64,000 nucleotides of DNA from an uncultured virus (IMG/VR IMGVR_UViG_3300049460_000369) (lineage: Duplodnaviria > Heunggongvirae > Uroviricota > Caudoviricetes), in IMG/VR virus record IMGVR_UViG_3300049460_000369; one strand, written 5' to 3'. Shown piece after piece: positions 10,671 to 38,477 of this stretch. The position numbers were made by a program, and so were the translations under genes. Position 1 is the stretch's first letter, and the number at the start of each line of letters is the position of its first letter. A model generated the notes under the pieces. The model saw only the letters and a program-made list of their open reading frames with translations, was not told where the DNA came from and searched no databases.

Positions 10671-10730
10671 TTAAGATATGTAATCATGCAGTTGTGGTGA
10701 ATAAACGCCACATTCACTTAGGAGCACATC

Positions 10731-11162
10731 ATGTTGCCACATACGTAGATTTCTGAATTTGTTCTTCCAACCCCTTCCGAGGCAATTGCTGATCCGTACC
10801 GTTTGTACGCGATTATGCGTCAAGACCTCGACATGCCAGCGGGCAAACTGTCCTCGCAAACTGGCCATGCGTATGTAAACGCAATTCTTCAGAGCCTGAA
10901 GCTGCGTCCCGAAATCGTCACCGAATATCAGGGTGATGCTGACATCGGTACGAAATGCTGCTTGGCTGCAAAAAACGAAGCAAAAATTCTCGAAGCATAT
11001 GAACGTGCTCAGGAAGCTGGTATTCCTTGTTCACTCATTATCGACGAGCATCACATCCTTCCACCGCACTTCGACGGCAAACCGATCATCACTGGTCTGG
11101 GCATTGGCCCTGCACGACGTCACGAAGTACCGTTCCTCAAGAGGTTTTCCGTATGGAAATGA
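10731..11162 (+). CDS. pth2: peptidyl-tRNA hydrolase type 2 (Pth2 family) with in-frame amber codon at codon 6
   Basis: MRQDLDMPAGKLSSQTGHA...KCCL...GIGP motifs; TAGGAG RBS before ATG 10731; TAG at 10746-10748 in frame with the Pth2 domain. Confidence 0.8.
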
Positions 11163-11443
11163 AAACTTACTGGGAAGTGGCTACCCGTTACGATCGCACC
11201 GTGATGGATGACTGGCAAGCTCGTTCACATTTCCACACTATTGCCCATCGCCTGGGTATACGAGTGAAATGGATGTCAGCCCAATCAACTCCAACTCACT
11301 GGATTGGTTATACGGCCAACAACCCATCTCCAGGATATCCAATCGATCAACATTTTTGGAAGATCGAAGATGAAGATCAGGCTGCATTGTTTCACCTCAC
11401 TTGCGGAAGCAAGATCAGGAAAGTAGAGGTGAATGATGGCTGA
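11159..11443 (+). CDS. FKL-motif paralog family member
   Basis: C-terminal IEDEDQAALFHLTC. Confidence 0.7.
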   Translation: MKTYWEVATRYDRTVMDDWQARSHFHTIAHRLGIRVKWMSAQSTPTHWIGYTANNPSPGYPIDQHFWKIEDEDQAALFHLTCGSKIRKVEVNDG

Positions 11444-11699
11444 TTACTACTCAGCTTGGGAAGTAAGAACCCCTTACGCGGATGACGAAACATTCGCAAG
11501 TGCAAAACGCCGTGTTATGCAACACGCAGAAACTCTTGGGATTGACCTCAAGTGGCGCAAGAGTAAGGGACAGAAGGGATACAAACGTTATCACTTTTGG
11601 GAAATCAACACTGAAGCAGAAGCGGCACTCTTGGTGATCGCCTGCGGAGACAAAGTAAGCAATAAGACTTACGCGGAGAGAAAGGATGAATGCAGTTGA
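11433..11699 (+). CDS. FKL-motif paralog family member
   Basis: Similar to upstream gene (WEVxTxY...LGI..KW...HFWxI..E.EAALL). Confidence 0.7.
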   Translation: MMADYYSAWEVRTPYADDETFASAKRRVMQHAETLGIDLKWRKSKGQKGYKRYHFWEINTEAEAALLVIACGDKVSNKTYAERKDECS

Positions 11700-11973
11700 T
11701 TTAGATGACGACTACGAAGATTTCGTGGGCGAAGATGAATGGGAAGATGAGAAAGCCGCAGAGGATATTTTGGATGCTCACCCAGGTTGGTTCCTGGTAA
11801 AGATCACAAATTATACCAGCAAGAAGATGGACGAAATTCTGGAATGGTGCAATGACAATTGTACAGATTCTTGGGAAAAAGTCGGCTGGTACTCTGGATG
11901 TGCTTATACCGTCGGTGTGATCCTCGAAGGTCATGTTGATGCAGTGTTGTTTCGTTTAACTTGGAGTGATTAA
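11686..11973 (+). CDS. FKL-motif paralog family member
   Basis: ILEWCNDN...W...HVDAVLFRLTW. Confidence 0.75.
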   Translation: MNAVDLDDDYEDFVGEDEWEDEKAAEDILDAHPGWFLVKITNYTSKKMDEILEWCNDNCTDSWEKVGWYSGCAYTVGVILEGHVDAVLFRLTWSD

Positions 11974-11975
11974 TC

Positions 11976-12518
11976 ATGGCAGTATATGGACTGAAACCAG
12001 CCTTCAAAGACCTGGCTGGATACAAACAATGGCGTAAAGTGTGGGCAGAAACTTACACGGTGCTGACCAGCAAGATCCGCAAAAACAAAATGAAGCTGAT
12101 CGAACTGCAACGCACGCTTGGCACGCAAGATGCATCAACCCGTAAAGCCCAGCAGATTCTGCGGGGTGAGCGTGCAATGGCCTTCAAGCTGAATAGCCTG
12201 TTGGATGAGGCAAAGATCCGAATGCAGAACATCACGAAGATGCGCAAAGAGATCCAGGATCATGTGGCTCAATTCCCACTCGAAATGGAATGCTGTAAGA
12301 ATGTTGACTTCCATTTCAACAAGAAGCATCTGGAACATGACTTTGTTCCAATGTGGATCGTGAAGGCCAAAGGCCAAAGTTTTTATGTGCAGCATGTTGA
12401 ATCGCGAGCAACATGGACAACTCGTGAAACGCCGGATCATCCGGCGACCAAAGGCGCAATTCGTTTTAAATCGTGTAATGTCAGCATCTCTGCTGACGGC
12501 GTAGCAACTATCTATTAA
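11976..12518 (+). CDS. hypothetical protein
   Basis: 180 aa, GGAG RBS. Confidence 0.75.
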   Translation: MAVYGLKPAFKDLAGYKQWRKVWAETYTVLTSKIRKNKMKLIELQRTLGTQDASTRKAQQILRGERAMAFKLNSLLDEAKIRMQNITKMRKEIQDHVAQFPLEMECCKNVDFHFNKKHLEHDFVPMWIVKAKGQSFYVQHVESRATWTTRETPDHPATKGAIRFKSCNVSISADGVATIY

Positions 12519-12536
12519 TTGAAAAGGAAGAACATC

Positions 12537-12818
12537 ATGAACGCAATCACTATCAACTTCACCACCCGTGCAACCTACCTGGAATTCAAGGCCGAATGGT
12601 CTGCCCAATACAAGGACACGGTCAACGCTATCCGTCAGGCGAAGCTGGACCTGAAGGAATGTCACCGTAAAAACCAGGACACGTATGCGACGCACAAAGC
12701 TCTGCGTGAGCTGCGTCAGGATATTGTGGATTTGGCTGCATTGAAAGCCGAAGCGAAGGTTGAAGCAAACCGTCAGTACCACGAGCAAAATACGGTTGAA
12801 GTAGCAGTCGCGGCTTAA
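12537..12818 (+). CDS. hypothetical helical protein
   Basis: AAGGAAG RBS before ATG 12537. Confidence 0.75.
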   Translation: MNAITINFTTRATYLEFKAEWSAQYKDTVNAIRQAKLDLKECHRKNQDTYATHKALRELRQDIVDLAALKAEAKVEANRQYHEQNTVEVAVAA

Positions 12819-13198
12819 CGTGATTGGCGGAGGTGCTTGATCATAGGCACCCCGCCATTTTCGTATATGTTCAATTCAGGTTCTGAGTACAGTCTCACGA
12901 AACCCATATGTCTCCAGAATGCCTCAGCATCTGGAGATTTTGCTCGTAAGTAGGCTCGTTTGATAAACTGTGGAAGTGAATTTTCCCATTCAGTATAGAG
13001 CTGGCGACCCCGACCACAGCGACGCTTTGACTCATCATAGATGATGAGGTTGGTGACGAGCGCGGTATCTGCCTCGGTAGTGCTCAGACTGGTGTTAAAC
13101 GTATAACCACATTCAGGAACTACAAATAGCATTGCGCTCTCCAAGTTTGGTTCATATGATAGCATATAAATTACACAAATGCAACTTGAAATCTTCAT
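12815..13198 (-). CDS. GNAT-family N-acetyltransferase
   Basis: Acetyl-CoA motif RRCGRGRQL and AEAFWRHMGF; start uncertain. Confidence 0.6.
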   Translation of the reverse strand: MKISSCICVIYMLSYEPNLESAMLFVVPECGYTFNTSLSTTEADTALVTNLIIYDESKRRCGRGRQLYTEWENSLPQFIKRAYLRAKSPDAEAFWRHMGFVRLYSEPELNIYENGGVPMIKHLRQSR

Positions 13199-13239
13199 CT
13201 ATTAACAAATAGATATAATCAACACTGGCTTCTATCCTT

Positions 13240-13605
13240 ATGGGTATTACAACCATGAGGCTCACTATGCTTTACCCAACTGACGACAACGTTGACACCT
13301 TCCCGGAACGCGATATGGTCCCACTCCAGATCATTATGAGTGCTCACGACATTCCAGACGGATCCACGATCACCAAGAAGACAGGCCAGAAGCCATATGT
13401 GATCAAGAGTAAGATTAAGATCTATGCGGAACAGAAGAGTGGTCTCGCTCCACAAATCCTGGAAGCACCTGGTGTGAAATACTTGATTGACGATAGTGGC
13501 AACATCAATGCTGTATCCAGCGAAGCAGAAGTAATGTGGCACACCACCACTGGAGAACTGTTGCGATTCTTGGACGAGTTTGTCAACCCAGAAGAAGACA
13601 AATAA
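13240..13605 (+). CDS. hypothetical protein
   Basis: 121-aa ORF; start may be slightly downstream. Confidence 0.65.
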   Translation: MGITTMRLTMLYPTDDNVDTFPERDMVPLQIIMSAHDIPDGSTITKKTGQKPYVIKSKIKIYAEQKSGLAPQILEAPGVKYLIDDSGNINAVSSEAEVMWHTTTGELLRFLDEFVNPEEDK

Positions 13606-13608
13606 TAG

Positions 13609-13637
13609 TTGATCGTTTGTTCATTTGCCCCTATAAT
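13609..13637 (+). promoter_or_regulatory. early promoter TTGATC-N17-TATAAT with GTTCATTTG box
   Basis: Direct reading of sequence. Confidence 0.75.
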
Positions 13638-13669
13638 AGGAACAACTTAAACGAACACGGAGCAACAAA

Positions 13670-14059
13670 ATGACCGCAGCAGCTAAGCCAACCTTCAACA
13701 AAGTACAACTGGCCTTCCTGAAAACCATCGCCGAACTGTGCAATGGCTCGCGTCCTTCGGTAAAAAACACCCGTGAAACCTCTGATGGCCTGTCGTACAC
13801 CGTTCGGGTAACCGATACCAACGACTACGGCGCACAACGCTACCTGCTGTCGCTGGGCTTTACCTCCGCAAACGTTAAATCGACCGGTGGCAGCACTCGC
13901 GGTGACTTCTCCAGCGATGCTTACGGTATTAACCTGTCACACCCAAGCGGTGTGAACGTAACCTGCGGTTCGTGGTTCGGTGGCAAGAAGCCAACCTTCA
14001 GCATCTCGATCACGGGCACCGAAGCGCAAATCGCTGCACTGACCGCGGAGGCGAAATGA
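13670..14059 (+). CDS. hypothetical protein
   Basis: GGAG RBS, follows promoter. Confidence 0.8.
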   Translation: MTAAAKPTFNKVQLAFLKTIAELCNGSRPSVKNTRETSDGLSYTVRVTDTNDYGAQRYLLSLGFTSANVKSTGGSTRGDFSSDAYGINLSHPSGVNVTCGSWFGGKKPTFSISITGTEAQIAALTAEAK

Positions 14060-14340
14060 GCTATATGCTAGTTGATGGCGTGGAAATGAATCGTAATCAT
14101 CCACGCACCTTCCAGATCCCATCCGCGATTGCCAAGGCGGGCGTCAAGGTTGGCGACTATGTGAAACTGGGCTTCTGCGAGGTTGGTCATGACAGTAACG
14201 AACGCATGTGGGTCAAGGTAACCAAGCGCGATGGCGACAAGTTTGAAGGGTACCTTGACAATGACCCAGCGTTCCTGACCTGCATCAAGTGGCAGGATAA
14301 AGTGGTGTTCGAATCGCGCCACATCATTAATTTGCCTTGA
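14056..14340 (+). CDS. DUF2314/YegJ-like protein
   Basis: GDYVKLGF...ERMWVKV...GYLDNDP; GGAGG RBS. Confidence 0.65.
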   Translation: MSYMLVDGVEMNRNHPRTFQIPSAIAKAGVKVGDYVKLGFCEVGHDSNERMWVKVTKRDGDKFEGYLDNDPAFLTCIKWQDKVVFESRHIINLP

Positions 14341-14365
14341 CAAAAAGTTTTCGTTCGTTTAATAT
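14337..14365 (+). promoter_or_regulatory. sigma70 promoter for the tRNA (TTGACA-N17-TAATAT)
   Basis: Perfect -35, 17-nt spacer, about 10 nt upstream of tRNA. Confidence 0.7.
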
Positions 14366-14374
14366 AGACGACAT

Positions 14375-14453
14375 GGGGATATAGCTCAATTGGTTAGAGC
14401 AGGGGGCACTCTAAACCCCAAGGTCTCCGGTTCGATTCCGGATATCCTCACCA
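14375..14453 (+). tRNA. tRNA with CUA (amber-suppressor) anticodon and atypical anticodon arm
   Basis: Acceptor GGGGATA/TATCCTC, D arm GCTC/GAGC, T arm TCCGG-TTCGATT-CCGGA, encoded ACCA; anticodon region GGGGG-CA-CT-CTA-AA-CCCC. Confidence 0.85.
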
Positions 14454-14476
14454 CCGACACTTTTGCACGTTTTATA

Positions 14477-14503
14477 GAGCCCGCGCCTTGCGGGCTTCTT
14501 TTT
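14477..14503 (+). terminator. intrinsic terminator after tRNA
   Basis: AGCCCGC-GCCTT-GCGGGCT followed by T-run. Confidence 0.75.
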
Positions 14504-14507
14504 GACC

Positions 14508-14966
14508 ATGATAACAATAAAACCGCTCACCTATAATCCCTTCGCAGTTCATGATGGCTTCCGCGACATTTGGCCGCAACGTGACAATGCCCCAGAGGAG
14601 GATGTGCTGTATTACCTGGAAGCCAGCCCACCAGAATTCAAATTTCTGATCTGTTTGAATGATCAGCCAATTGGCCTTACCGGCTATTGGCCGCTAACCG
14701 TAGATTCGATGGGAATGGCGTGGAGTGGTTTAATCAAAAGCCAGCAGGGCAAGGGATACTGGCCCCAAGCATTCAAACTGGTACTTGATCACATGCGCGC
14801 CGCTTACCCTGAGATCAAATACGCTATCGAGCCCATGCCACAAGAACGAGTCAACGAACTTGGCCCATACTATGAGAAACTGGGCTTCGTAAACATGAAT
14901 GTAATCATGGACCACCCAGAGCTCTATGATGCAGTAACATGGATCGAATACCGCTACACCCTGTAA
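14508..14966 (+). CDS. GNAT-family N-acetyltransferase
   Basis: PIGLTG, QQGKGYW, YYEKLGF motifs. Confidence 0.7.
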   Translation: MITIKPLTYNPFAVHDGFRDIWPQRDNAPEEDVLYYLEASPPEFKFLICLNDQPIGLTGYWPLTVDSMGMAWSGLIKSQQGKGYWPQAFKLVLDHMRAAYPEIKYAIEPMPQERVNELGPYYEKLGFVNMNVIMDHPELYDAVTWIEYRYTL

Positions 14967-14977
14967 TCAAGTTTCGC

Positions 14978-15006
14978 TTGATCTGGCGTTCATTTGAATG
15001 TATCAT
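14978..15006 (+). promoter_or_regulatory. early promoter TTGATC-N17-TATCAT with GTTCATTTGAA box
   Basis: Direct reading of sequence. Confidence 0.75.
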
Positions 15007-15031
15007 GTCTGTACGGTAAACAGAGGAGTAA

Positions 15032-15373
15032 ATGATGAATATGACGAATGAAGAACTGGACAAAGGCCTGAAGCCAAAAGAGAAAGAGTTCCTGGACAAA
15101 GTTCGCGAACTGACTCGTGCTGAAAAAAACGGCTACCGGTTCTTCATCCATCGCCGCATCGTCGGCGCGATTTGCTTCCAGCCGTTCAACGATGCTGGTA
15201 TCATTCAGTTCCCGGATAAAGACAAGTTCCGTGACCCCGAAGTGATCGCCCAAGCTGTAGAATTGTACCGTCAAGGTGCGTTCACGGCACGGCGCGATGC
15301 GATCGCGGAACAGCAAGCCAAGCTCCGCGAACTGTGCGGTCTGCCTGTCGAAAACAAGAGCGAGGACGAATAA
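15032..15373 (+). CDS. hypothetical protein
   Basis: GAGGAG RBS. Confidence 0.75.
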   Translation: MMNMTNEELDKGLKPKEKEFLDKVRELTRAEKNGYRFFIHRRIVGAICFQPFNDAGIIQFPDKDKFRDPEVIAQAVELYRQGAFTARRDAIAEQQAKLRELCGLPVENKSEDE

Positions 15374-15582
15374 TGAGCAACACTCATAAAATCCAAAAAG
15401 CATGGGAACATCACCATATCGATGGCCCTTCGCCAGACCCAAGCAATGCCGGTGGCTCGAATGCTGCTCTGCGTCACGGCAACAATCGCAAGATGTACTC
15501 CAAATTGAAGGTGACCGAACGTCGTATTGATCGGGCGCGTGATCGTGTGGAAGCACGGCAAGCAATACGGAGTGACGAATGA
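15373..15582 (+). CDS. small basic hypothetical protein
   Basis: GAGGA RBS; coupled to upstream stop. Confidence 0.6.
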   Translation: MSNTHKIQKAWEHHHIDGPSPDPSNAGGSNAALRHGNNRKMYSKLKVTERRIDRARDRVEARQAIRSDE

Positions 15583-15836
15583 CCATGCTATCGTTCAACA
15601 ACGTGTTCGCCATTCTGGGCACCTGGGTTGATGGTGATGTTACGAGCTACGACGAGACCACTTACGATGACGAGATCATGGCTCAACGTGTGGCGCAGTA
15701 TGCCAACAACGAACGCGCAAAACAAGACGACGGTCAGCCTTTGGTACACTACAAGGCCGTGACGTTGACCGAATACATCAAAGCCCTCACGACACAAGCT
15801 GAACGTGAAGGCTATCGCCAAGGAGCAGACTCGTGA
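15579..15836 (+). CDS. hypothetical protein
   Basis: Coupled ORF. Confidence 0.7.
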   Translation: MTMLSFNNVFAILGTWVDGDVTSYDETTYDDEIMAQRVAQYANNERAKQDDGQPLVHYKAVTLTEYIKALTTQAEREGYRQGADS

Positions 15837-16144
15837 AATTTCCACTCAACCAACTCTTCGTGGTCCTATACCAGAGCAGCATTCTGGATCAGCCCGTCAT
15901 TCACGATGATGAAGTCCATACTACCGAAGTTGATGCTCAGCTGGAATGCCAAAAGCTCAACGAAGACCTGGGCGTGAAACGTCGCTATACTTACATGAGC
16001 CTCAGTCGCTACATGCAGCAAGCGACTGAGGTTGTAAATGACGATCCCATCCCTTGTCCGACCTGCATCGGCTCCCGGGTATTGGGTGAGATTCGTGGCG
16101 TCCCATGCAGCAATTGCGGTGGTCGTGGTCTGATCGACAAGTGA
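15833..16144 (+). CDS. hypothetical protein with DnaJ-type CxxCxGxG zinc-finger pair
   Basis: CPTCIGSR...CSNCGGRG. Confidence 0.65.
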   Translation: MKFPLNQLFVVLYQSSILDQPVIHDDEVHTTEVDAQLECQKLNEDLGVKRRYTYMSLSRYMQQATEVVNDDPIPCPTCIGSRVLGEIRGVPCSNCGGRGLIDK

Positions 16145-16159
16145 CCTAGGAGAATTATC

Positions 16160-16468: not shown

Positions 16469-16479
16469 AGGAGCATCAC

Positions 16480-16842: not shown

Positions 16843-16845
16843 TGC

Positions 16846-16874
16846 TTGATTCGTTTATCAAATGAATGTATCAT
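16846..16874 (+). promoter_or_regulatory. early promoter TTGATT-N17-TATCAT with TCAAATGAA box
   Basis: Direct reading of sequence. Confidence 0.75.
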
Positions 16875-18231: not shown

Positions 18232-18455
18232 TGTCATTATACATCTGCGTCACAAATCCACGCCACCTGCAAGAACGTCGCGGCTATAGCTTACCTGCCC
18301 CAGAAGTGTTAGGCTGGTTGAAAACTAACCTCGATGGTGAATACGACGTCGAGCCCTATAGCAGTGGTTGTGATATTCATTTCAGCTCTGAAGCCGCTGC
18401 TGCATTTTATAAGCTGACCTGGTTTGGTCGCGAACCTGAAGCAATCTGTGAATAA
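18231..18455 (+). CDS. FKL-motif paralog family member
   Basis: VLGWLKTN...HFSSEAAAAFYKLTW. Confidence 0.7.
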   Translation: MSLYICVTNPRHLQERRGYSLPAPEVLGWLKTNLDGEYDVEPYSSGCDIHFSSEAAAAFYKLTWFGREPEAICE

Positions 18456-19680
18456 ACTATACGACGAGCTTTTTGCTCCAACGATTAACTGGTCCAACTT
18501 GTGCGAGATCATCCCTGACCTTGCCAAGCTGAACCAGACTCCCCAAGACGTACGCCATCATACCGAAGGCGACGTGGGCATCCACACACGCATGTGCCTT
18601 GACGAGCTGCGCAATGACGTCAAATGGCAAGCATTGACTTCTGTCGACCAATACAAATGCTTGTTGGCCGTATTGATGCACGACATCGCAAAGCCACAGC
18701 GCACCGTGTTGGAAGATGATGGCACCATTTCGTCCAAGGGCCACAGTGCAGCTGGTAACATCCAGACCCGAGGCATCTTGTGGCAGCTTGGGGTTGATCC
18801 TGCAATCCGTGAGTTTGCTTGCCGTGTTGCCAATTATCACCAACTTCCATTCTATCTGGAGAATCATCCAGCCCGTGACTACGAAATGCGCAAGCTGTCG
18901 TTGACATTGCCATTGAATCTGCTGTCGATTTGCAGTCGTGCCGATGCCGCTGGGCGTTTGACCACGCCACCAGAGAACAGGCAAAAGACTTTCGATGCTA
19001 TTGATATGTTCGATCTGTATGCCGAGGATCTTGGCCTCTGGAATAAACCGATGGTGCATGACAGTTTGACTGAACGCGGCATCTACCTGGAGAAACGCGG
19101 CGCGATTGATCCGTCGTACCCTTGGCCTACTGCCCACAAACGTGGTCTCCTGATCGCCATGTGTGGTTTGCCATGTTCAGGCAAAAGCACCATTTCAACT
19201 GCTTGGGACATTCCGGTAATCGGATTGGACTGGGCCCGAGAAGAATTGGATGTCGGCCACGGTGATGCAAAGGGTGAAGGTCAAGCCAAACAAAAAGCGT
19301 CTGCTGAACTGAAAGCACTTCTTGGCGCCGGTTCGTCTGTTGTGTTTGATGCAACCAACTTGGAGAAAGACAAACGTGATCGTTTGGTCTCCACCGCTTC
19401 GGCATACTTAGCCGACACGGTGTTCATTCATGTGGAGTCCACATATGAAATGTGGTTGAAACAGATCAAGAGCCGGGGCGATACTAGCCCAAGTGATAAA
19501 ACGCTTCAGGGCATGATACGTCGCTGGGGAGCACCGTTGGGTGACGAGGGTTCGGCCCAAGTGTTTATTAATGATGGAAGCGTCATAGATGTCTGGGGAT
19601 CGCTTAAAATGTCAGCGGCGGCGTCAGTTATCGCACGGGCGGAATACTTGAACAAGAATCCATTGGGGAAGCCCATCTAG
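18448..19680 (+). CDS. HD-domain phosphohydrolase fused to AAA_33 P-loop kinase (polynucleotide kinase/phosphatase-like)
   Basis: HHTEGDV..HT, MHDIAK, AD..GR; GLPCSGKST Walker A, VFDATNL. Confidence 0.85.
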   Translation: MNKLYDELFAPTINWSNLCEIIPDLAKLNQTPQDVRHHTEGDVGIHTRMCLDELRNDVKWQALTSVDQYKCLLAVLMHDIAKPQRTVLEDDGTISSKGHSAAGNIQTRGILWQLGVDPAIREFACRVANYHQLPFYLENHPARDYEMRKLSLTLPLNLLSICSRADAAGRLTTPPENRQKTFDAIDMFDLYAEDLGLWNKPMVHDSLTERGIYLEKRGAIDPSYPWPTAHKRGLLIAMCGLPCSGKSTISTAWDIPVIGLDWAREELDVGHGDAKGEGQAKQKASAELKALLGAGSSVVFDATNLEKDKRDRLVSTASAYLADTVFIHVESTYEMWLKQIKSRGDTSPSDKTLQGMIRRWGAPLGDEGSAQVFINDGSVIDVWGSLKMSAAASVIARAEYLNKNPLGKPI

Positions 19681-32585: not shown

Positions 32586-32601
32586 AAGTTCATTCGTCCA
32601 C

Positions 32602-32630
32602 AAAAAGCGCCTAGTGTTAGGCGCTTTTTT
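32602..32630 (+). terminator. intrinsic terminator
   Basis: AAAAAGCGCCTA...TAGGCGCTTTTT. Confidence 0.75.
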
Positions 32631-32667
32631 GCCATATAATGGCAACAATATTCACACGAAAGTTCAT

Positions 32668-33903
32668 ATGAACATCATCATCACTGGTAATATTGGCTGT
32701 GGCAAAAGTACAGTCGTGAACGAACTGCGCAAGCATTTCCCCAACCACACCGTCCACAGCTTTGACGAGATGGTGCATGCCCTGTATGACAACGACGATT
32801 TTTGCCAGTTTCTGATGGACAACTTTGGTACCATCGTACGTGCGCAAGTCAGCGACCGCGTATTCAAGGATCCCGACCTGAAAGAAGCCTTGGAGCAATT
32901 CTCGCTGGGCATTCTGAATCAAGAAGTTGCCAAAGTACTGAATACCCGCAATGCAATTCTGGAATGGCCACTCTACTACGAAATGCGCGGAAACCATCGC
33001 TACTCATTCCATGCTAAATCGATTGCCATATCGTGTTCAGACGAAACCCAATTGGCACGGATCAAAGCCCGCGATGATTTCTCGGATGAAAAGATTGCAG
33101 CCATTCGCGCCAGCCAATACAGCACTGACCTTAAAGTTGCAATGAGCGACTACCGCTTCGTTAATGAAGACGGCAACCTGGTGAATGACATCAAACACCT
33201 GGCTATGAAACTGAAAGTGGTGCTGCTGGAAGAGCGGGCACTCAAGTTCTTCAACAGCCCGCTCGTGTGGCCAAGTATCAAAACTCATTACACGGAAGAA
33301 CATCGCCACTATCACACGTTGGAACACCTGGCGGCAATGTTCGATAAGTTCGATGAGGTCAAGGACCAAATCCCTCATGCGTGGGAAGTTGAACTGGCAA
33401 TCTGGTTCCATGACTACATCTACGATACGGATGAAGGTTATCAGAACAACGAAATCAACAGTGTCCGCCACATGATGCATGTGCTGGCTGGCATGACTAC
33501 TACCTGGCCAGTTGAAGATCGTAATGGCGAAACCATCCCGGCCACGCAGGCAAGTAATTACGCGAAGGTTATTCTCGCTGCCGAATTCATCCTGTCCACC
33601 AAAGGCCACAAGGTCAAAGCTCCTAGCGTCATGGTCGACGCTACCAAGCGTTTGAGCAACGAATACATGCTGGACATTGACCTGAGCATTTTGGGCGCTT
33701 CCCAGACTGCCTGTGACGTCTTTGACGATAATATTCGCAAAGAGTTCTCGCAATACCCAGATGATCAATTCGCCAAAAGCCGTGTCCAAGCGATGCGTGA
33801 ATTTAAAGATCGCCAACGCATCTTCTACACCGATCACTTCCACGAGCAATATAACAGCAATGCTCGTGTCAATCTCAAAAACATCATCAAGAAATGGAGC
33901 TAA
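32668..33903 (+). CDS. coaE: dephospho-CoA kinase fused to COG4339-like HD phosphohydrolase
   Basis: ITGNIGCGKST, Q.ARI.ARD...I..SQ; then RHYHTLEH, AIWFHD, NE..S, LDIDL.ILG, IRKEF. Confidence 0.8.
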   Translation: MNIIITGNIGCGKSTVVNELRKHFPNHTVHSFDEMVHALYDNDDFCQFLMDNFGTIVRAQVSDRVFKDPDLKEALEQFSLGILNQEVAKVLNTRNAILEWPLYYEMRGNHRYSFHAKSIAISCSDETQLARIKARDDFSDEKIAAIRASQYSTDLKVAMSDYRFVNEDGNLVNDIKHLAMKLKVVLLEERALKFFNSPLVWPSIKTHYTEEHRHYHTLEHLAAMFDKFDEVKDQIPHAWEVELAIWFHDYIYDTDEGYQNNEINSVRHMMHVLAGMTTTWPVEDRNGETIPATQASNYAKVILAAEFILSTKGHKVKAPSVMVDATKRLSNEYMLDIDLSILGASQTACDVFDDNIRKEFSQYPDDQFAKSRVQAMREFKDRQRIFYTDHFHEQYNSNARVNLKNIIKKWS

Positions 33904-33904
33904 T

Positions 33905-34435
33905 ATGTCTCACTGCCTCGTAGCTGGTTCGTATGACCCATTCACCAACGGCCATGCAATCATGGTCAAACAAGCCCTGAAACTGTTCGAACGGGTGGAT
34001 GTGATCGTCGCCGCCAATCCAGCCAAGAAATACTACCTGGGTACTGGCGAGCGCGTGTCGTTGGTGCAACGTGTGCTAGTGGATGAAATCCCGAACGACT
34101 ACTCGCGGGTGCAAGTGGTAGCACTTGGTGCTGACTTCCTGGTGAATCATGCAGCTGATGTTGGTGCCACCCATATCGTTCGTGGTCTACGCAATGGCAT
34201 GGATTTTGAGTACGAGCACAACATGCAGGTGATCAACCAAGATATCAACCCCGATATCGCGACCGTCTACGTGTCGTGCCCACCCGATCTGCAACGCGTC
34301 AGCTCGTCGATGGTCAAGGGCCTGATTGGCTATCCGGGCTGGGAAAAACAGGTTGGCAAATATGTGAATGAGATCGTACTCAAAGCATTGATCCAACAGC
34401 ACATTAGTAACCAAATCATGCGCTCAGTTCGGTGA
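33905..34435 (+). CDS. coaD: phosphopantetheine adenylyltransferase
   Basis: GSYDPFTNGH, NPAK, IVRGLR...DFEYE, VSSS.VK. Confidence 0.9.
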   Translation: MSHCLVAGSYDPFTNGHAIMVKQALKLFERVDVIVAANPAKKYYLGTGERVSLVQRVLVDEIPNDYSRVQVVALGADFLVNHAADVGATHIVRGLRNGMDFEYEHNMQVINQDINPDIATVYVSCPPDLQRVSSSMVKGLIGYPGWEKQVGKYVNEIVLKALIQQHISNQIMRSVR

Positions 34436-34614
34436 CAAATAATATCGTCCTTACCTCCCTTGGTGCATTGATTTTCATCGTGGGTGCATTTAGTATCATG
34501 ACTGGACCATCCATGCGCCATACGACAATTTGGCGCGTTCTACGCGAATACGTGTGGGTGGCCTTAATCATGTGGGGTGGCGTATACTTGCTGCTCCTCG
34601 CTTGGGTGTCTTAA
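34432..34614 (+). CDS. small membrane protein
   Basis: Two hydrophobic segments. Confidence 0.55.
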   Translation: MTNNIVLTSLGALIFIVGAFSIMTGPSMRHTTIWRVLREYVWVALIMWGGVYLLLLAWVS

Positions 34615-34841
34615 TGAAAAAAGAAAAACCGCAGGTAACCACTGAACAGATGCCAGTCCTCAAGACTATCTTTTTCTTCTTCTGTGGATTGGCACTGTTG
34701 TTCTCGTGGCTGATGTATTATAGTTGGACGAGAAACGGTAATTGGTATCTGCTTTGGGCCGCATTGTATTTTTACAACTGCAATATTGCAACCAATATCC
34801 GAGAGCTAATAGAATGGCCATTATATAAAACCGGAGACTGA
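34614..34841 (+). CDS. small membrane protein
   Basis: Hydrophobic aromatic segments. Confidence 0.55.
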   Translation: MKKEKPQVTTEQMPVLKTIFFFFCGLALLFSWLMYYSWTRNGNWYLLWAALYFYNCNIATNIRELIEWPLYKTGD

Positions 34842-34842
34842 C

Positions 34843-35076
34843 ATGTTCGCTTACCTGAAACGGTGTTTGCTGGGAATTCCACTCTATCAAATTACTGTCG
34901 AAGGCGAGACACTAGACGGTCATACGGTACGGCTTCAATACCAGACGCATCACGATCTGACTACTGAGGCACGACTTTCACAGCGTCAGCTGGTGAAACA
35001 CAAACTCGAAAAGTGGTATTGCACGCATATCAAGGCAACGTCGATCCGCTTTGTTGATTCAGAAAAACTAAAATGA
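34843..35076 (+). CDS. hypothetical protein
   Basis: GGAG RBS. Confidence 0.6.
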   Translation: MFAYLKRCLLGIPLYQITVEGETLDGHTVRLQYQTHHDLTTEARLSQRQLVKHKLEKWYCTHIKATSIRFVDSEKLK

Positions 35077-35438
35077 CAATCAATCAACACGAATTAAAAG
35101 GTCTCCAGGTTCAGCTTAAACAAGCAGAAGCTCTGGTCTCCACAAGTGAGATCGAAACCAAATCCTGCCAGAAGCGCGAAGCCGAAGCACGTCGCCAGTT
35201 GAAATCGCTGCAAGAACGAGTGAAACAACTGGAAGCCAATAACGCTGAGCCAATTGTAAGTGAGCATGCCATCCTGCGTTATCTTGAACGAGTCAAGGGC
35301 ATTGATGTTGAAGCCATCAAGCAAGAGATCCTGGATGAAAACGCCAGCAAACATATCAAGTTCGCCAAGAATGGTACTCTGAAACGTGCCGCATATTCAC
35401 TCATCTTCCGCAATAATGTAATCGTCACTGTGGAATAA
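35073..35438 (+). CDS. hypothetical protein (coiled coil + SEHAILRYLERV.G domain)
   Basis: VSEHAILRYLERVKGID...VIVTV. Confidence 0.7.
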   Translation: MTINQHELKGLQVQLKQAEALVSTSEIETKSCQKREAEARRQLKSLQERVKQLEANNAEPIVSEHAILRYLERVKGIDVEAIKQEILDENASKHIKFAKNGTLKRAAYSLIFRNNVIVTVE

Positions 35439-35442
35439 TTTC

Positions 35443-35790
35443 ATGAAAATAGCCCGCGGTGCAACACGACTCGTATTCTTGACTCGTACTCGGGCATATA
35501 AGATCCCAACTTTCAGTTCATGGAAGTTGTTCCTCAACGGCCTCTTAGCCAACATACAAGAACACGAATTTGGCACACTGGGATGGGAAGGTTTCTGCCC
35601 AGTGTTATGGTCAATCCCAGGTGGCTTTTTGGTCACTATGCCACGTGCTGAACCCATTACGGATTATGACTGGGAAGGCTTTGATGCTGACCACTTCATA
35701 CATCGTCCCCATTACACAATCCCCGCTGAACTAAAGCAAAGCAGCTTTGGCTTCCTTGACGGCGAGATAGTAGCCGTCGACTACGGCTAA
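35443..35790 (+). CDS. miniature kinase-like hypothetical protein
   Basis: GATR.V...AYKIP...ELK..SFG...VAVDYG. Confidence 0.5.
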   Translation: MKIARGATRLVFLTRTRAYKIPTFSSWKLFLNGLLANIQEHEFGTLGWEGFCPVLWSIPGGFLVTMPRAEPITDYDWEGFDADHFIHRPHYTIPAELKQSSFGFLDGEIVAVDYG

Positions 35791-35861
35791 CTTGATACAT
35801 TGCTCGTTGCAAAACTGGCACCACTGTGTATCATATGGCATCAATACTATTTGGCGCCATC

Positions 35862-36293
35862 ATGAAATTATATGTACCAGAAATCGGCGATGAACTGACC
35901 ATCGAACAAGACTGGCATTTTGATCTGCATTACGAAGAACGAAATGCTAGCCTCTACGCCCACCTGGGTTTTACTGATGTTGCACTGAAACTGGGCTCGT
36001 ACTCATGGAATACTAAAGATCCATTGCCAACCTCGGTGGCATTACCTGCGGGCACTATTCTGAAAGTTGAACGCATCTACATCCGCAAAGGGCAAGATGA
36101 TTTCAATAGCATGACCTTTGTGGTCCCCGGAATTAAGGTGGCGGTGCCATTTCCCCACCGGGAATATCCCAAGGTCAATGGTAAACCAGATTACAGCGCC
36201 AAGATTATTGAAACTGTTCAGACCAAGAATCGCCCATTACGTTTCTGGGTGAAGCTGGAAGACGCAAACAAAATCGAATTCACAAAACCATAA
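35862..36293 (+). CDS. hypothetical protein
   Basis: LYVPEIGD...W.F.LHYE.RN...RIYIRKG...FWVKL. Confidence 0.75.
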   Translation: MKLYVPEIGDELTIEQDWHFDLHYEERNASLYAHLGFTDVALKLGSYSWNTKDPLPTSVALPAGTILKVERIYIRKGQDDFNSMTFVVPGIKVAVPFPHREYPKVNGKPDYSAKIIETVQTKNRPLRFWVKLEDANKIEFTKP

Positions 36294-36300
36294 AAAGAAC

Positions 36301-36504
36301 ATGACCTATAATAAAAAGAACTTCAATGTCGACGATCGTGTGGTAATTGTTGCAACAAACGGCATCCTGGATGGGATGACTGGTAGTGTGCTGGCAAAAA
36401 TGGCAACGCCAAGTATCACCGATGACTATATCGTGGCTTACGACTTGCCAGTAAATGGTCAAAAGGCACTTGTGATCACCGAAGCTTGCTTGGAGGCCGT
36501 ATAA
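36301..36504 (+). CDS. small KOW/SH3-like hypothetical protein
   Basis: FNVDDRVVI...GMTGSV. Confidence 0.6.
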   Translation: MTYNKKNFNVDDRVVIVATNGILDGMTGSVLAKMATPSITDDYIVAYDLPVNGQKALVITEACLEAV

Positions 36505-37394
36505 TGGTTTGCGTAACTAAGAAACTCGTTGAGCAAAAGCTCATCGCGCCACCTGCCTTCGTACATGAAAATCTCGCCTATGAAACTCTCATGGGCTCGC
36601 AAAGCTATGGCGTAAGTTCAGACGACAGTGACTGGGATATCTACGGCTTCTGTGTACCAGAAAAGGAATTGGTTTTCCCACATTTGAGTGGTGAGATTCT
36701 GGGCTTTGGCCGTCAAGTGCAAGCATTTGGTCAGTATCAGGAACATCATGTGATGAGTATGGATGGTCAGAAAGAGTATGACATCCAGATCTTCAACATC
36801 GTGAAGTTCTTCCAACTGGCAATGGACAACAACCCGAACATCGTGGACTCATTGTTCACGCCTGATCGTTGCATCCTGCACTCAAACAACATCGGCAAGA
36901 TGGTTCGCGATCAACGCGAGATCTTCCTGCATAAAGGCTCATGGCACAAGTTTAAAGGCTATGCCTACAGTCAACTGAGTAAAATTGGACAGAAGGCCAA
37001 TGCCCAAAATCCAAAGCGCCAGGCGTCTATTGTTGAGTTTGGCTACGACGTGAAATTTGCATACCATGTTGTTCGTCTCTTGGATGAATGCGAGCAGATT
37101 TTGATGTCGGGTACTCTGAACCTGGAACAGAATCGCGAACAGCTCAAGAGTATTCGCCGGGGCGAATGGACGCTCCAGGAGATCAACGATCACTTTGCCA
37201 AGAAGGAAAAAGATCTCGAGTCTCTGTACCATTCAAGTTCTTTGCGTTATAGTCCTGACGAAAGCCAGATCAAAGCGCTGTTGCTGCAATGTCTGGAAGA
37301 ACAATACGGTTCATTGAGTGACTTGATTCAGAAAGAGAATCGCACACAAGATATGATCCGCGATATCGAAGCAACTTTGGCAAAATACAAATGA
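36504..37394 (+). CDS. Pol-beta-superfamily nucleotidyltransferase (RlaP/PF10127-like)
   Basis: GSQSYG...SDWDIYG, NPN.VD.LF, YDVKFAYH.VRL, LK.IR.G. Confidence 0.85.
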   Translation: MVCVTKKLVEQKLIAPPAFVHENLAYETLMGSQSYGVSSDDSDWDIYGFCVPEKELVFPHLSGEILGFGRQVQAFGQYQEHHVMSMDGQKEYDIQIFNIVKFFQLAMDNNPNIVDSLFTPDRCILHSNNIGKMVRDQREIFLHKGSWHKFKGYAYSQLSKIGQKANAQNPKRQASIVEFGYDVKFAYHVVRLLDECEQILMSGTLNLEQNREQLKSIRRGEWTLQEINDHFAKKEKDLESLYHSSSLRYSPDESQIKALLLQCLEEQYGSLSDLIQKENRTQDMIRDIEATLAKYK

Positions 37395-37885
37395 TCACCA
37401 ACACCGAATTCGAACACGAAGGACAAATCATCAAGGCCACCATTAATCATGGTGACCAATACTGGCCATTCAAACTGGCGGAGATTGAAGAAACGAAAAA
37501 TTGCATCTACGTGGGCGAGTTCGCGTTGAACAATGGTGCAGGCTGGAGTGAATCACCATATGCGGTCTTCTACCAACTTGAACCGGCGGAAGGCCATAGC
37601 GACCACTTTGGCTTGACCGTGCGTGGCGAATACACGTACATCACGAGTGCGCAGTCTGCGGTTGATACTGAATTCATTGGTATGATGTCCAAGGATGGTG
37701 AAATAGTATACAGCCGCTTCCGTCACGACTACCGCCTGAGTACTGACGGTAACGTTATGGTCGATGGTGGCCGCGACTATCTGAAAACAAATGGCCGTGG
37801 GCGTGCTGTACGGCTTAAAATTGTCAATGACGAAGTCAAAGTGCTTGGCTTTGTCAAATACGATGAAGACGGAAATGTTATCTAA
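37391..37885 (+). CDS. phage hypothetical protein
   Basis: YSRFRHDY...VDGGRDY. Confidence 0.75.
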   Translation: MITNTEFEHEGQIIKATINHGDQYWPFKLAEIEETKNCIYVGEFALNNGAGWSESPYAVFYQLEPAEGHSDHFGLTVRGEYTYITSAQSAVDTEFIGMMSKDGEIVYSRFRHDYRLSTDGNVMVDGGRDYLKTNGRGRAVRLKIVNDEVKVLGFVKYDEDGNVI

Positions 37886-38477
37886 CACGTCGACTATCAA
37901 CTCGAGCTTTGCCGATTATCCTTTGATTGATTGGCAACTGCTCATGCAGGCGTCCCAATACTTCACAGGGTTGGACTATAAGCAAGTTGAGGTGCCGTGG
38001 ATCGTCCCAGAAAGCTTGACTCAGGACACCAAGCCACATGACAATCGCTCATTCGTTATGACGTCTGACATGTTCAAATACCAACCACATGAATTGGTTG
38101 GTTCGGCGGAGCAAGGTTTCATATACGCACTGGCAAACAAAGAGATCAAGCCAGGAGCGTATTGGTCGATCTCGCCGTGTTTCCGGTATGATGCATACGA
38201 TGCTTTGCATTTCCCTTGGTTCATGAAGCTCGAGCTGTGTGTGATTCCAAAACCAGAACAGGACAAGGCCACATTGTTGAAGACATTAATTCAACACTGC
38301 ATGGACCTGTATACTAGTTTCGGTGAAGTGCCCACCCTGGTCCCAATTGGTGATACCTTTGACATTGAAATCAATGGCGACGAGGTTGGATCGTATGGCA
38401 TTCGTGAGATAACCGAAACCCCTTATATCTACGGCACGGGCTTGGCCTTGCCACGTTTTAGCATAGCGAGACGTTAA
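37875..38477 (+). CDS. minimal class II aminoacyl-tRNA synthetase catalytic-domain protein (PylRS/PheRS-alpha/EpmA-like)
   Basis: Motif 1 YF..LDYKQVEVPW.V, motif 2 SPCFR.D..D.LH...FMKLEL, GDTFDIEING.EVGS, motif 3 YGTGLALPRF; no anticodon-binding domain. Confidence 0.75.
   Translation: MLSNTSTINSSFADYPLIDWQLLMQASQYFTGLDYKQVEVPWIVPESLTQDTKPHDNRSFVMTSDMFKYQPHELVGSAEQGFIYALANKEIKPGAYWSISPCFRYDAYDALHFPWFMKLELCVIPKPEQDKATLLKTLIQHCMDLYTSFGEVPTLVPIGDTFDIEINGDEVGSYGIREITETPYIYGTGLALPRFSIARR

What the first reader, a model, noticed from the sequence alone, without database searches (positions are those of the whole stretch)
10719..38477. Candidate phage amber-readthrough system: CUA tRNA + PylRS-like mini synthetase + amber-gated pth2
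Seen: (1) a promoter- and terminator-flanked tRNA with a CTA anticodon (14375-14453); (2) a pth2 gene with an in-frame TAG at codon 6; (3) a 200-aa class II aaRS catalytic core with no anticodon-binding domain (37875-38477). Known: the pyrrolysine system pairs a class II synthetase with a structurally odd tRNA-CUA. The conserved genes here (guaC, clpX, topoisomerases) read normally in code 11 and TAG still ends a few genes, so the genome is not globally recoded. Inference: the phage may carry an orthogonal synthetase/suppressor pair that switches on selected amber-interrupted genes, with Pth2 cleaning up the resulting peptidyl-tRNA drop-off. The three parts are not adjacent, so their link is hypothetical.
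Basis: partly seen in the sequence, partly recalled or inferred. Interest (0 to 1): 0.92.

Follow-up and report, generated by a model that had tools for sequence, protein, structure and literature searches.

The report
Stop-codon-gated phage pth2 with suppressor tRNA
In a group of giant phages that use the normal genetic code, one peptidyl-tRNA hydrolase gene starts with a tiny reading frame that ends in a stop codon matching a stop-reading tRNA carried by the same phage, so the enzyme is probably made only when that tRNA is active; the small synthetase-like protein is unrelated.

Summary
All three observed objects exist. Only two of them belong together.

**pth2 gate.** The window's pth2 has a strong SD, ATG 10731, five codons and TAG 10746, then continues in frame. 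The same design occurs in Sinorhizobium phage Phosso, Agrobacterium phage Atu_ph07 and 25 of 27 IMG/VR relatives.

**Stop and tRNA covary.**
- 19 TAG genomes carry a tRNA-CUA.
- 3 TGA genomes carry a tRNA-UCA.
- None is mismatched.
- 5 TAG cases are unresolved: one complete genome, three fragments and the window.

**Other support.** In 20 of 25 gated loci no ATG, GTG or TTG lies between the stop and the Pth2 core. Codon-level constraint runs on both sides of an invariant TAG. Five distant phage pth2 genes and four paralogues in the same genomes are not gated.

**The window's tRNA (14375-14453).** It is atypical. A 9-nt loop holds the clade's CUCUAAA plus two extra bases. ARAGORN reads it as Arg-UCU and Rfam places CUA at 34-36. 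Whether it suppresses is open.

**The 200-aa class II core.** It belongs to a widespread phage family (phrog_4806) and is no closer to PylRS than to SerRS. It is absent from most gated-pth2 phages, and 5 of 5 phages that carry it have no suppressor tRNA.

**Prior notice.** I found no paper linking pth2 to these tRNAs. This scan noted the same pairing earlier on other DNA (e1-3412305).

The parts
10720..10724 (+). Shine-Dalgarno AGGAG, 6 nt before ATG 10731
   Evidence: read directly. SD-like motifs precede the mini-ORF ATG in the relatives.
10731..10745 (+). mini-ORF codons 1-5 (M L P H T), in frame with pth2
   Evidence: A ~90% identical relative in run X2 differs here only by T>C at 10734 and 10742; I read both as synonymous, Leu and His.
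10746..10748 (+). in-frame TAG (codon 6), the proposed gate; followed by A (UAG-A)
   Evidence: The same placement occurs in Phosso, Atu_ph07 (TGA there) and 25 of 27 IMG/VR loci.
10749..11162 (+). pth2 body: 137 codons plus TGA stop. The Pfam PTH2 domain starts at residue 17 of this stretch.
   Evidence: PF01981 E 5.2e-17, 62.5 bits. NCBIfam Pth2 models match with E 2.6e-15 but below their cut-offs. phrog_1866 matches.
10803..10805 (+). TTG (Leu of 'RLY'), the first canonical start codon after the TAG. It is a possible reinitiation site, and no SD precedes it.
   Evidence: The SD absence was read by eye.
14337..14365 (+). sigma-70-like promoter match TTGACA-17-TAATAT upstream of the tRNA
   Evidence: 10 of 12; a consensus match only
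14375..14453 (+). tRNA with a 9-nt anticodon loop (14407-14415, CACUCUAAA). CUA lies at 14411-14413 and UCU at 14410-14412. It is the candidate amber suppressor.
   Evidence: The loop contains the CUCUAAA heptamer shared by 14 of 15 tRNA-CUA of the clade. A suppressor tRNA lies 3.1-4.3 kb downstream of pth2 in the four closest relatives.
14477..14497 (+). terminator-like hairpin followed by a T-run, after the tRNA
37875..38477 (+). 200-aa stand-alone class II aaRS-like core (phrog_4806), judged NOT part of the pth2/tRNA system
36486..37394 (+). RlaP-like nucleotidyltransferase, in the same tightly packed gene run as the class II core
   Evidence: PF10127 E 1.2e-19. Homologous nucleotidyltransferases lie 1-2 kb upstream of the class II core in phiTE and CR3.

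Best explanation
This is a translational gate that depends on a suppressor tRNA and controls one Pth2 paralogue.

How it works: ribosomes start at a strong SD and ATG, translate 1-9 codons (five in the window) and meet an in-frame stop. Release factor ends most attempts. When the phage's own stop-reading tRNA (CUA for TAG, UCA for TGA) decodes the stop, translation continues in the same frame into Pth2. In most relatives Pth2 has no start codon of its own. Pth2 output therefore follows the activity of the phage suppressor tRNA.

What is shown: the anatomy, its conservation, coding constraint across the stop, and covariation of codon and anticodon.

What is inferred: that read-through actually happens, which amino acid is inserted, and the purpose. 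The most likely purpose is to couple peptidyl-tRNA recycling capacity to the level of read-through, or to the timing of phage tRNA expression.

In this window the partner is most likely the tRNA at 14375-14453. Its loop carries two extra bases, so suppression may be weak. A canonical tRNA-CUA elsewhere in the unseen part of the genome is also possible.
For: Anatomy in the window.

Same design in relatives: Phosso has ATG AAG TAT TAG. Atu_ph07 has ATG plus 5 codons, then TGA. The IMG/VR relative L053 has ATG plus 3 codons, then TAG. In all, 25 of 27 IMG/VR loci found with the Pth2 alignment are gated. The two exceptions are the most distant (30% and 26% identity) and have ordinary ATG starts.

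No other start: in 20 of 25 gated loci there is no ATG, GTG or TTG between the stop and the beta1 region. The Pfam domain begins 12 residues upstream of the Met that GenBank annotators used.

Codon and anticodon covary:
- 19 TAG genomes carry tRNA-CUA.
- 3 TGA genomes carry tRNA-UCA. In L063 and L064 it lies 4.3 kb downstream of pth2; in their TAG relatives L061 and L062 a tRNA-CUA lies 3.1-3.4 kb downstream.
- There are 0 mismatches.
- Phosso's full set of 60 ARAGORN tRNAs holds CUA twice and no UCA. Atu_ph07's set of 31 holds UCA once and no CUA.

Proximity: the suppressor tRNA lies within 10 kb of pth2 in 18 of the 25 gated loci, and directly upstream of it in L079, L083 and L084.

Coding constraint, from 8 loci:
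- Mini-ORF: 64 synonymous against 25 non-synonymous pairwise differences.
- 33 codons after the stop: variable sites 7, 6 and 22 by codon position.
- 30 nt upstream: 19 against 199.
- TAG is invariant.

Stop context: the base after the stop is a purine in 24 of 25 loci, in the window and in Phosso.

Controls: 5 of 5 distant phage pth2 genes have ordinary starts. 0 of 4 second Pth2 paralogues in the same genomes are gated.

Not an assembly error.
Against: - No expression, proteomic or aminoacylation data exist, and no RNA run was available.
- One complete 543-kb genome (G002, locus L065) has two gated pth2 copies, yet no canonical tRNA-CUA was found among its 65 ARAGORN tRNAs.
- The window's tRNA has a 9-nt loop. 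ARAGORN reads it as Arg-UCU. Engineered tRNAs with one extra base 5' of CUA read UAG about 20-fold less well (PMC4764823, passages read).
- Five of 25 gated loci, and the window, do have a canonical start codon between the stop and beta1: GTG or TTG right after the stop in L063, L064 and L082; TTG or ATG at the edge of beta1 in L065, L074 and the window.
- The genomes are related, so the 22 concordant pairs amount to at least two independent TAG/TGA switches, not 22 events.
- Atu_ph07 ends 267 genes with UGA (PMC6102473, passage read), so the suppressor must be weak or the phage must tolerate read-through.
Confidence: 0.7

Rival explanations
1. Leader ORF with termination and reinitiation. The mini-ORF is a coupled upstream ORF, and Pth2 starts independently just downstream: at TTG 10803 or ATG 10815 in the window, or at a non-canonical codon elsewhere. 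The tRNA plays no part.
For: The window has TTG 18 codons after the TAG, at the edge of the Pfam domain. L065, L074, L063, L064 and L082 also have a canonical start codon in this interval. The one complete genome with no canonical suppressor (G002) is one of these.
Against: 20 of 25 gated loci have no ATG, GTG or TTG before beta1. Coding constraint begins at the first codon after the stop and also covers the mini-ORF. This model does not explain why the stop and the anticodon switch together. No SD precedes TTG 10803 (read by eye).
Confidence: 0.14
2. The 200-aa class II core is an orthogonal synthetase that charges the odd tRNA, and that tRNA then opens pth2.
For: The core keeps the motif 2 and motif 3 arginines (R104 and R194 are invariant in 35 sequences) and has no anticodon-binding domain. 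Foldseek's top solved matches are PylRS. The window and G002, the two cases with no canonical tRNA-CUA found, both carry a member of this family.
Against: The family has 963 relatives and occurs in 247 phage records. It was not found in Phosso or Atu_ph07. Among the 12 near-complete gated genomes only G002 has a strong match; G014 has a weak one to a 431-aa ORF. In 5 of 5 phages that carry it no suppressor tRNA was found. In other phages it sits among nucleotide-metabolism or nucleotidyltransferase genes. The G002 and window copies are only 35% identical. VIA ranks SerRS (Z 20.4) and HisZ (17.6) above PylRS (17.0). In the window it lies 23 kb from the tRNA.
Confidence: 0.05
3. The tRNA at 14375 is an ordinary or decaying tRNA (Arg-UCU as ARAGORN reads it, or a disabled suppressor). 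Gated pth2 in this phage is read by another tRNA outside the window, or is no longer expressed in full.
For: ARAGORN calls Arg-UCU. The loop has 9 nt, whereas all 17 compared clade suppressors have 7. Only 64 kb of a probably much larger genome is visible. Phosso has two tRNA-CUA far apart.
Against: The UCU reading needs C at position 33, a C.A pair and an extra base at position 26 (read by eye). The loop contains the clade's CUCUAAA heptamer. Only 1 of the 40 most similar tRNA bodies is Arg-UCU, while 11 are CUA suppressors. The gene has its own promoter-like and terminator-like flanks. A suppressor lies downstream of pth2 in the same way in the four closest relatives.
Confidence: 0.3
4. The TAG is a sequencing error or pth2 is a pseudogene.
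For: None beyond the stop itself.
Against: An independent contig reproduces the stretch with 0 differences, and the relative in run X2 keeps the TAG. The stop is conserved at this place in 27 genomes, with purifying selection on both sides.
Confidence: 0.01

Closest known systems
Stop-codon recoding in phages that carry suppressor tRNAs (TAG or TGA reassigned; crAss-like, Lak and others). Sources: bioRxiv 10.1101/2021.08.26.457843 and PMC9523058, of which I saw only the search listings and abstract starts.
   Same: A phage that infects a standard-code host carries its own stop-reading tRNA, and in-frame stops make expression depend on it.
   Different: In those phages many genes, mostly late ones, hold many in-frame stops and the stop is effectively reassigned. 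Here the code is standard, one gene in 64 kb is affected, and the stop always sits in the first ten codons behind a mini-ORF.
Autoregulation of release factor 2 (prfB) through an early in-frame UGA (recalled; no call)
   Same: A translation-factor gene carries an early in-frame stop, so its synthesis reports on the balance between termination and competing events at that stop.
   Different: prfB needs a +1 frameshift and senses its own product. Here the frame is unchanged, and the competing agent is a dedicated phage tRNA.
Synthetic suppressor-tRNA feed-forward 'leak dampener' in E. coli (PMC7969014; search listing and abstract start seen)
   Same: An amber codon in a gene combined with a co-expressed suppressor tRNA controls whether the protein is made.
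   Different: That system is engineered. The one here is natural, conserved across dozens of giant phages, and tied to pth2.
Pyrrolysine system (PylRS with tRNAPyl-CUA)
   Same: A class II core without anticodon recognition, and a CUA tRNA, both exist in the window.
   Different: The two do not co-occur across genomes. The core is no closer to PylRS than to SerRS. The tRNA has a 9-nt D-loop and a 5-nt variable loop, unlike the compact tRNAPyl (features recalled).
   Same: The same pairing, seen on other DNA. Locus L083 here has that layout.
   Different: This report adds the TAG/TGA and CUA/UCA covariation, the ungated paralogue controls, the codon-level test and the atypical 9-nt-loop tRNA.

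Membership tests
Pth2 (PF01981, peptidyl-tRNA hydrolase 2) | Profile match above the curated cut-off | tested here: met
   Pfam gives 62.5 bits against a cut-off of 23, covering profile positions 1-105 of 115.
Pth2 (PF01981, peptidyl-tRNA hydrolase 2) | Equivalog-level match to archaeal or bacterial Pth2 (NCBIfam) | tested here: not met
   NF003314 gives 56.5 bits against a cut-off of 126, and TIGR00283 gives 47.5 against 82. This is a divergent phage branch.
Pth2 (PF01981, peptidyl-tRNA hydrolase 2) | Hydrolysis of peptidyl-tRNA | not testable with these tools
   Needs an enzyme assay.
Amber suppressor tRNA | Cloverleaf tRNA gene | tested here: met
   RF00005 gives 57.8 bits. ARAGORN calls it. 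The minimum-energy fold is a cloverleaf.
Amber suppressor tRNA | CUA at positions 34-36 of a 7-nt anticodon loop | tested here: inconclusive
   The loop has 9 nt. cmscan puts CUA at 34-36 with a 2-nt insert. ARAGORN reads UCU. All 17 compared clade suppressors have 7-nt loops.
Amber suppressor tRNA | A cognate in-frame UAG in a gene of the same genome | tested here: met
   pth2 codon 6.
Amber suppressor tRNA | Aminoacylation and decoding of UAG | not testable with these tools
   Needs a reporter or a charging assay.
Stop-codon-recoded phage (TAG reassigned) | Many genes with in-frame TAG, and ORFs that lengthen or merge when TAG is read as sense | tested here: not met
   There is one convincing case in 64 kb. 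Conserved large genes are intact in code 11.
PylRS / pyrrolysine system | Specific similarity of the enzyme to PylRS rather than to other class II cores | tested here: inconclusive
   phmmer against PDB gives E 0.01-0.56 to PylRS. Foldseek's top 44 are PylRS, with E about 1e-11. VIA gives SerRS Z 20.4, HisZ 17.6 and PylRS 17.0.
PylRS / pyrrolysine system | Enzyme and tRNA-CUA inherited together | tested here: not met
   0 of 2. 3 of 20 records matched (strong in G002 and G021, weak in G014), and G021 has an ungated pth2. 0 of 5 carriers have a suppressor tRNA.
PylRS / pyrrolysine system | Pyrrolysine biosynthesis genes pylBCD | not tested
   No search was made for them.
Class II aminoacyl-tRNA synthetase catalytic core | Class II fold with the motif 2 and motif 3 arginines | tested here: met
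   pLDDT 92.6. Z 20.4, rmsd 2.7 over 196 residues to SerRS. R104 and R194 are invariant in 35 sequences. Assigning them to motifs 2 and 3 is my reading.
Class II aminoacyl-tRNA synthetase catalytic core | An anticodon- or tRNA-binding domain | tested here: not met
   The protein has 200 residues and the core fold spans residues 3-200. Homologues listed are 158-272 aa within a searched range of 110-350. Longer forms were not searched.

The most novel reading that the evidence does not exclude
The suppressor tRNA and this Pth2 paralogue form a read-through homeostat. Pth2 can be made only through suppression. In turn it acts on the products of suppression: peptidyl-tRNA from read-through stalls, or the acylated suppressor tRNA itself. 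This would hold phage-induced stop-codon read-through at a set level, as the RF2 loop does for termination, but built from a tRNA and a hydrolase. A side branch that the evidence does not exclude: in the two lineages where no canonical tRNA-CUA was found (the window and G002), an expanded-loop or otherwise odd tRNA does the reading, and the class II mini-enzyme present in both serves it.
Probability: 0.15. Interest if true: 0.9.

Novelty: new variant of a known kind. Interest (0 to 1): 0.76.

Why it matters
Suppressor tRNAs in phages that use the standard code have had no known target. The Atu_ph07 paper says only that many UGA-ending genes are potential targets (PMC6102473). The AP-J-162 paper calls its CUA tRNA 'tRNA-Pyl' (PMC11242549).

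This finding gives them a specific, conserved client gene, with covariation between codon and anticodon. A cultured phage-host pair (Atu_ph07 or Phosso) can test it directly.

It also corrects annotation. GenBank records start this pth2 at an internal Met that removes the first 12 residues of the domain. Gene callers will miss the true start in every such phage.

It shows a natural single-gene use of nonsense suppression as a regulatory switch. This could be a stepping stone towards full stop-codon reassignment in phages.

Tried and rejected
- **Whole genome of the window:** none is held.
- **DNA-level relatives in GenBank phages:** none.
- **Exact search for the window's tRNA arm:** 0 hits in viral contigs and 0 in metagenome contigs. 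I could not reach the rest of this genome to look for a second tRNA-CUA.
- **Pattern scan for other tRNAs with two extra bases before CUCUAAA:** Uninformative.
- **Quadruplet reading:** UAGA read by UCUA was considered, because UCUA is in the loop and the TAG is followed by A. Rejected: a +1 shift leaves the pth2 frame (read by eye).
- **Phosso's 250-aa 'serine-tRNA synthetase' against the window's mini-enzyme:** no significant BLASTP similarity.
- **Flanks of the window's tRNA:** not homologous to those of the relatives' tRNAs. Synteny holds only from pth2 to about 12518.
- **Sequencing runs:** no RNA holder is listed. Run X2's differences in the tRNA region were cut from the output, so I could not see whether the ~90% relative has the 2-nt insert.
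- **Other gated genes:** a scan of 498 kb of loci found 23 TAG, 2 TAA and 2 TGA patterns. Nearly all the TAG cases are pth2 itself, because the loci were chosen around it. One lies inside a tRNA gene (L077), and three others were not followed up (L079, L082, window 63421 minus strand).
- **Literature:** (PMC and bioRxiv full text) returned no title, abstract start or passage that I read linking pth2 to a suppressor tRNA. Subscription journals are not covered.
- **Supplements:** not opened.

Full report
**What is in the window.**

ARAGORN finds one tRNA in the 64 kb, at 14375-14453(+), and calls it Arg(UCU). Rfam's tRNA model matches the same place at 57.8 bits. It aligns the anticodon arm as five pairs (one of them a mismatch) around a 9-nt loop, C-ac-U-CUA-A-A, which puts CUA at positions 34-36. 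Read directly, the arm is four G-C pairs closing CACUCUAAA. ARAGORN's UCU reading needs C at position 33, a C.A pair and an extra base at position 26. A TTGACA-17-TAATAT match lies upstream and a 9-pair hairpin with a T-run lies downstream.

For pth2, AGGAG is at 10720-10724, ATG at 10731 and TAG at 10746-10748. The frame stays open to 11162. Pfam PTH2 matches with E 5e-17, and the domain begins at residue 17 after the TAG. The first canonical start after the TAG is TTG 10803, with no SD before it.

The protein at 37875-38477 is a 200-residue class II core.

The genome is not recoded. Making TAG a sense codon does not merge long ORFs. GMP reductase, ClpX and the topoisomerase subunits are intact. 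pth2 is the only convincing case of SD, ATG, a short frame, TAG and a long ORF.

**The pth2 stop is conserved, not an accident.**

No GenBank phage matches at the DNA level. By protein, the nearest relatives are the giant phages Phosso (469 kb) and Atu_ph07 (490 kb). Both records annotate pth2 from an internal Met, although homology extends upstream of it.

Upstream of that Met, Phosso has AGGAG, ATG AAG TAT TAG in frame. Atu_ph07 has an SD, ATG, five codons and TGA in frame. An IMG/VR relative with 62% identical Pth2 has ATG AAC AAG CAA TAG.

A search with the four-protein alignment returned 27 IMG/VR loci. One of them is Atu_ph07 itself, and one is the contig already seen. Of the 27, 25 have an SD-like motif, ATG, 1-7 further codons and an in-frame stop (TAG in 22, TGA in 3). 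The other two, at 30% and 26% identity, start normally. In 20 of the 25 there is no ATG, GTG or TTG between the stop and the beta1 region.

In a subgroup of eight loci:
- The mini-ORF peptide M(L/I)xNSFL is conserved, with 64 synonymous against 25 non-synonymous pairwise differences.
- The 33 codons after the stop vary mostly at third positions (7, 6 and 22 variable sites by codon position).
- The 30 nt upstream look non-coding (19 against 199).
- The TAG is invariant.

A Logan contig of the probable source sample reproduces 10600-14600 with 0 differences. A relative about 90% identical, from another study, differs within the mini-ORF only by T>C at 10734 and 10742, both synonymous by my reading, and shows no listed difference at the TAG.

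**The stop matches the phage's own suppressor tRNA.**

ARAGORN was run on every region of Phosso and Atu_ph07 that gave an Rfam tRNA hit. Phosso, whose gate is TAG, has two tRNA-CUA and no UCA. Atu_ph07, whose gate is TGA, has one tRNA-UCA and no CUA.

Within 10 kb of pth2:
- 16 TAG loci have a tRNA-CUA.
- Both TGA loci other than Atu_ph07 (L063, L064) have a tRNA-UCA 4.3 kb downstream of pth2.
- Their TAG relatives L061 and L062 have a tRNA-CUA 3.1-3.4 kb downstream.

Contig-wide checks were made for four of the six TAG loci that had no local suppressor:
- G005: a tRNA-CUA is present.
- G006: a tRNA-CUA is present.
- G003, a 54% fragment: none found.
- G002, a complete 543-kb genome: none found among 65 tRNAs.

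G004, a 5% fragment, has no tRNA hit. L081 was checked only within its own 11-kb locus.

| Gate and tRNA | Count |
|---|---|
| TAG with tRNA-CUA | 19 |
| TGA with tRNA-UCA | 3 |
| Mismatched | 0 |
| TAG, unresolved (G002, three fragments, the window) | 5 |

Because the genomes are related, this amounts to at least two independent switches, not 22 events.

In L079, L083 and L084 the tRNA lies directly upstream of the mini-ORF. The base after the stop is a purine in 24 of 25 loci, in the window and in Phosso. From memory, this is the context that favours suppression over termination.

**Controls.**

Five more distant phage pth2 genes (A4, RaK2, XacN1, Kikimora, Milchi) each have a canonical start directly before beta1. 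Phosso, Atu_ph07, G005 and G007 each carry a second, divergent Pth2 paralogue, and 0 of these 4 is gated. The tandem extra copy in G002 is gated by TAG.

**The window's tRNA.**

All 17 suppressors aligned with it have 7-nt loops, and 14 of the 15 tRNA-CUA read CUCUAAA. The window's loop is that heptamer preceded by CA. Its body is not specifically Arg-like. Among the 40 most similar of 349 phage tRNAs, 11 are CUA suppressors, 6 are Lys and 1 is Arg-UCU. Its flanking genes are not homologous to those of the relatives' tRNAs.

Engineered tRNAs with one extra base 5' of CUA still read UAG, about 20-fold less well than the parent (PMC4764823, passages read). The tRNA may therefore be a weak suppressor, a disabled one, or not the partner at all. 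I put its being the working partner at roughly even odds.

**The class II mini-enzyme.**

- It has 963 relatives of 110-350 aa, matches phrog_4806 'histidyl tRNA synthetase', and occurs in 247 GenBank phage records, 84 of them Escherichia and 61 Acinetobacter phages.
- The model is confident, with pLDDT 92.6.
- Foldseek's top solved matches are PylRS, with E about 1e-11 and TM 0.63-0.69. A search over cluster representatives ranks SerRS first (Z 20.4), then HisZ (17.6) and PylRS (17.0). It is a generic class II core.
- R104 and R194 are invariant, so ATP-dependent activation of a carboxylate is plausible.
- It was not found in Phosso or Atu_ph07. It matched in 3 of 20 relatives' records: strongly in G002 and in G021, whose pth2 is ungated, and weakly in G014.
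- CcrColossus, phiTE, MP1, CR3 and RXM all carry it, and none has a suppressor tRNA among 62 ARAGORN tRNAs.
- Its neighbours elsewhere are a nucleotidyltransferase in phiTE and CR3, which is homologous to the window's RlaP-like gene; frd and td in MP1; and thyX, MazG and RNR in RXM.

One coincidence remains unexplained: the window and G002, the two cases with no canonical tRNA-CUA found, both have this family, though the two copies are only 35% identical.

**Mechanism and purpose.**

Shown: the anatomy, its conservation, coding constraint through the stop, covariation with the tRNA, and ungated controls. Inferred: that read-through occurs. The purpose is open. Three ideas fit:
- Pth2 capacity is made in proportion to suppressor activity, to recycle the peptidyl-tRNAs that read-through of normal terminators creates. 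It fits the phage tmRNA genes near pth2 in L061, L063 and L064.
- Pth2 synthesis is timed to follow expression of the phage's tRNAs.
- A feedback loop limits suppression.

From memory, release at very short ORFs is slow and peptidyl-tRNA drop-off is frequent. That would make codons 2-10 a good place for a tRNA to compete with the release factor.

**Comparison and novelty.**

The nearest described phenomenon is stop-codon recoding in phages with suppressor tRNAs (listings and abstract starts only). Here a single gene is affected and the code is otherwise standard.

The Atu_ph07 paper reports the UCA tRNA and two Pth genes separately and leaves the tRNA's targets open. The AP-J-162 paper reports a 'tRNA-Pyl'. 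Three full-text searches found no paper that joins them.

This scan noted the same pairing earlier on other DNA (e1-3412305), and similar gates on other genes (e1-4040081, e1-4046722, e1-5749954, e1-5362900; e1-3412305). I checked the pairing claim independently here. I did not check the other notes.

Noticed in passing
L089 3142-3253(-) and 2180-2290(-) (IMG/VR record G002): Two tRNAs (58.9 and 53.3 bits) carry 43-44-nt insertions in the anticodon loop. The insertions share a hairpin, AAGCCTAT...ATAGGCTT. ARAGORN misses both. They may be intron-bearing or two-armed tRNAs, in the one complete gated-pth2 genome where no canonical tRNA-CUA was found.
   Followed up: partly
L089 19426-19506(-) (G002): A tRNA-like gene below the Rfam cut-off (26.3 bits), with a truncated D-arm, a long variable arm and the loop CUUCUAC. 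Like the window's loop, it contains UCUA.
   Followed up: partly
L052 3984-5143 (Phosso); also L068, L070, L073, L075, L076, L077, L080, L085: A different mini class II core (250-271 aa, PF00587, nearest solved sequence GlyRS) lies 50 nt to 1.9 kb downstream of the tRNA-CUA in Phosso and eight IMG/VR loci, between CysRS and pth2. The block of tRNA, small ORF and this gene is missing from L071, where the two flanking genes lie about 50 nt apart; L069 also lacks it. The gene is present in 11 of 22 records.
   Followed up: partly
L061 1882-2274; L063 7736-8245; L064 6774-7277: Permuted tmRNA genes (tag ANDNV(Y/F)(A/S)(A/M)AA) lie 2-8 kb upstream of gated pth2. None was found in the window.
   Followed up: no
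L065 about 9080-9840 (G002): A second pth2-like ORF of 243 codons lies in tandem. It is also preceded by SD, ATG, nine codons and TAG.
   Followed up: partly
L086 4666-4739; L083 10402-10480: ARAGORN reports tRNAs with 8-nt anticodon loops (uuca and gcaa) in related giant phages.
   Followed up: no
window 13599-13662: A 40-60-nt element is matched by many separate contigs in both runs, and depth triples there. It is probably a short repeat scattered through the phage genome. It overlaps promoter-like matches at 13580-13637.
   Followed up: no
window 36486-38923: A tightly packed run of genes: an RlaP-like nucleotidyltransferase, a 164-aa protein with a weak DUF7695 match, the class II core, and a 148-aa ORF. 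The nucleotidyltransferase and class II core recur together in phiTE and CR3.
   Followed up: partly
window 46860-54113(-): A 2417-aa ORF with collagen triple-helix repeats, probably a fibre or decoration protein.
   Followed up: no
window 18424-19680(+): A 418-aa protein with an AAA_33/KTI12-type kinase domain. It is one of only two plus-strand ORFs of 80 aa or more that end in TAG under my crude ORF picker.
   Followed up: no
L001 4055 and L002 4046 (GenBank annotations): Phosso and Atu_ph07 annotate pth2 from the internal Met of the DLxM motif, which removes the first 12 residues of the Pfam domain. Atu_ph07 labels the gene hypothetical.
   Followed up: yes
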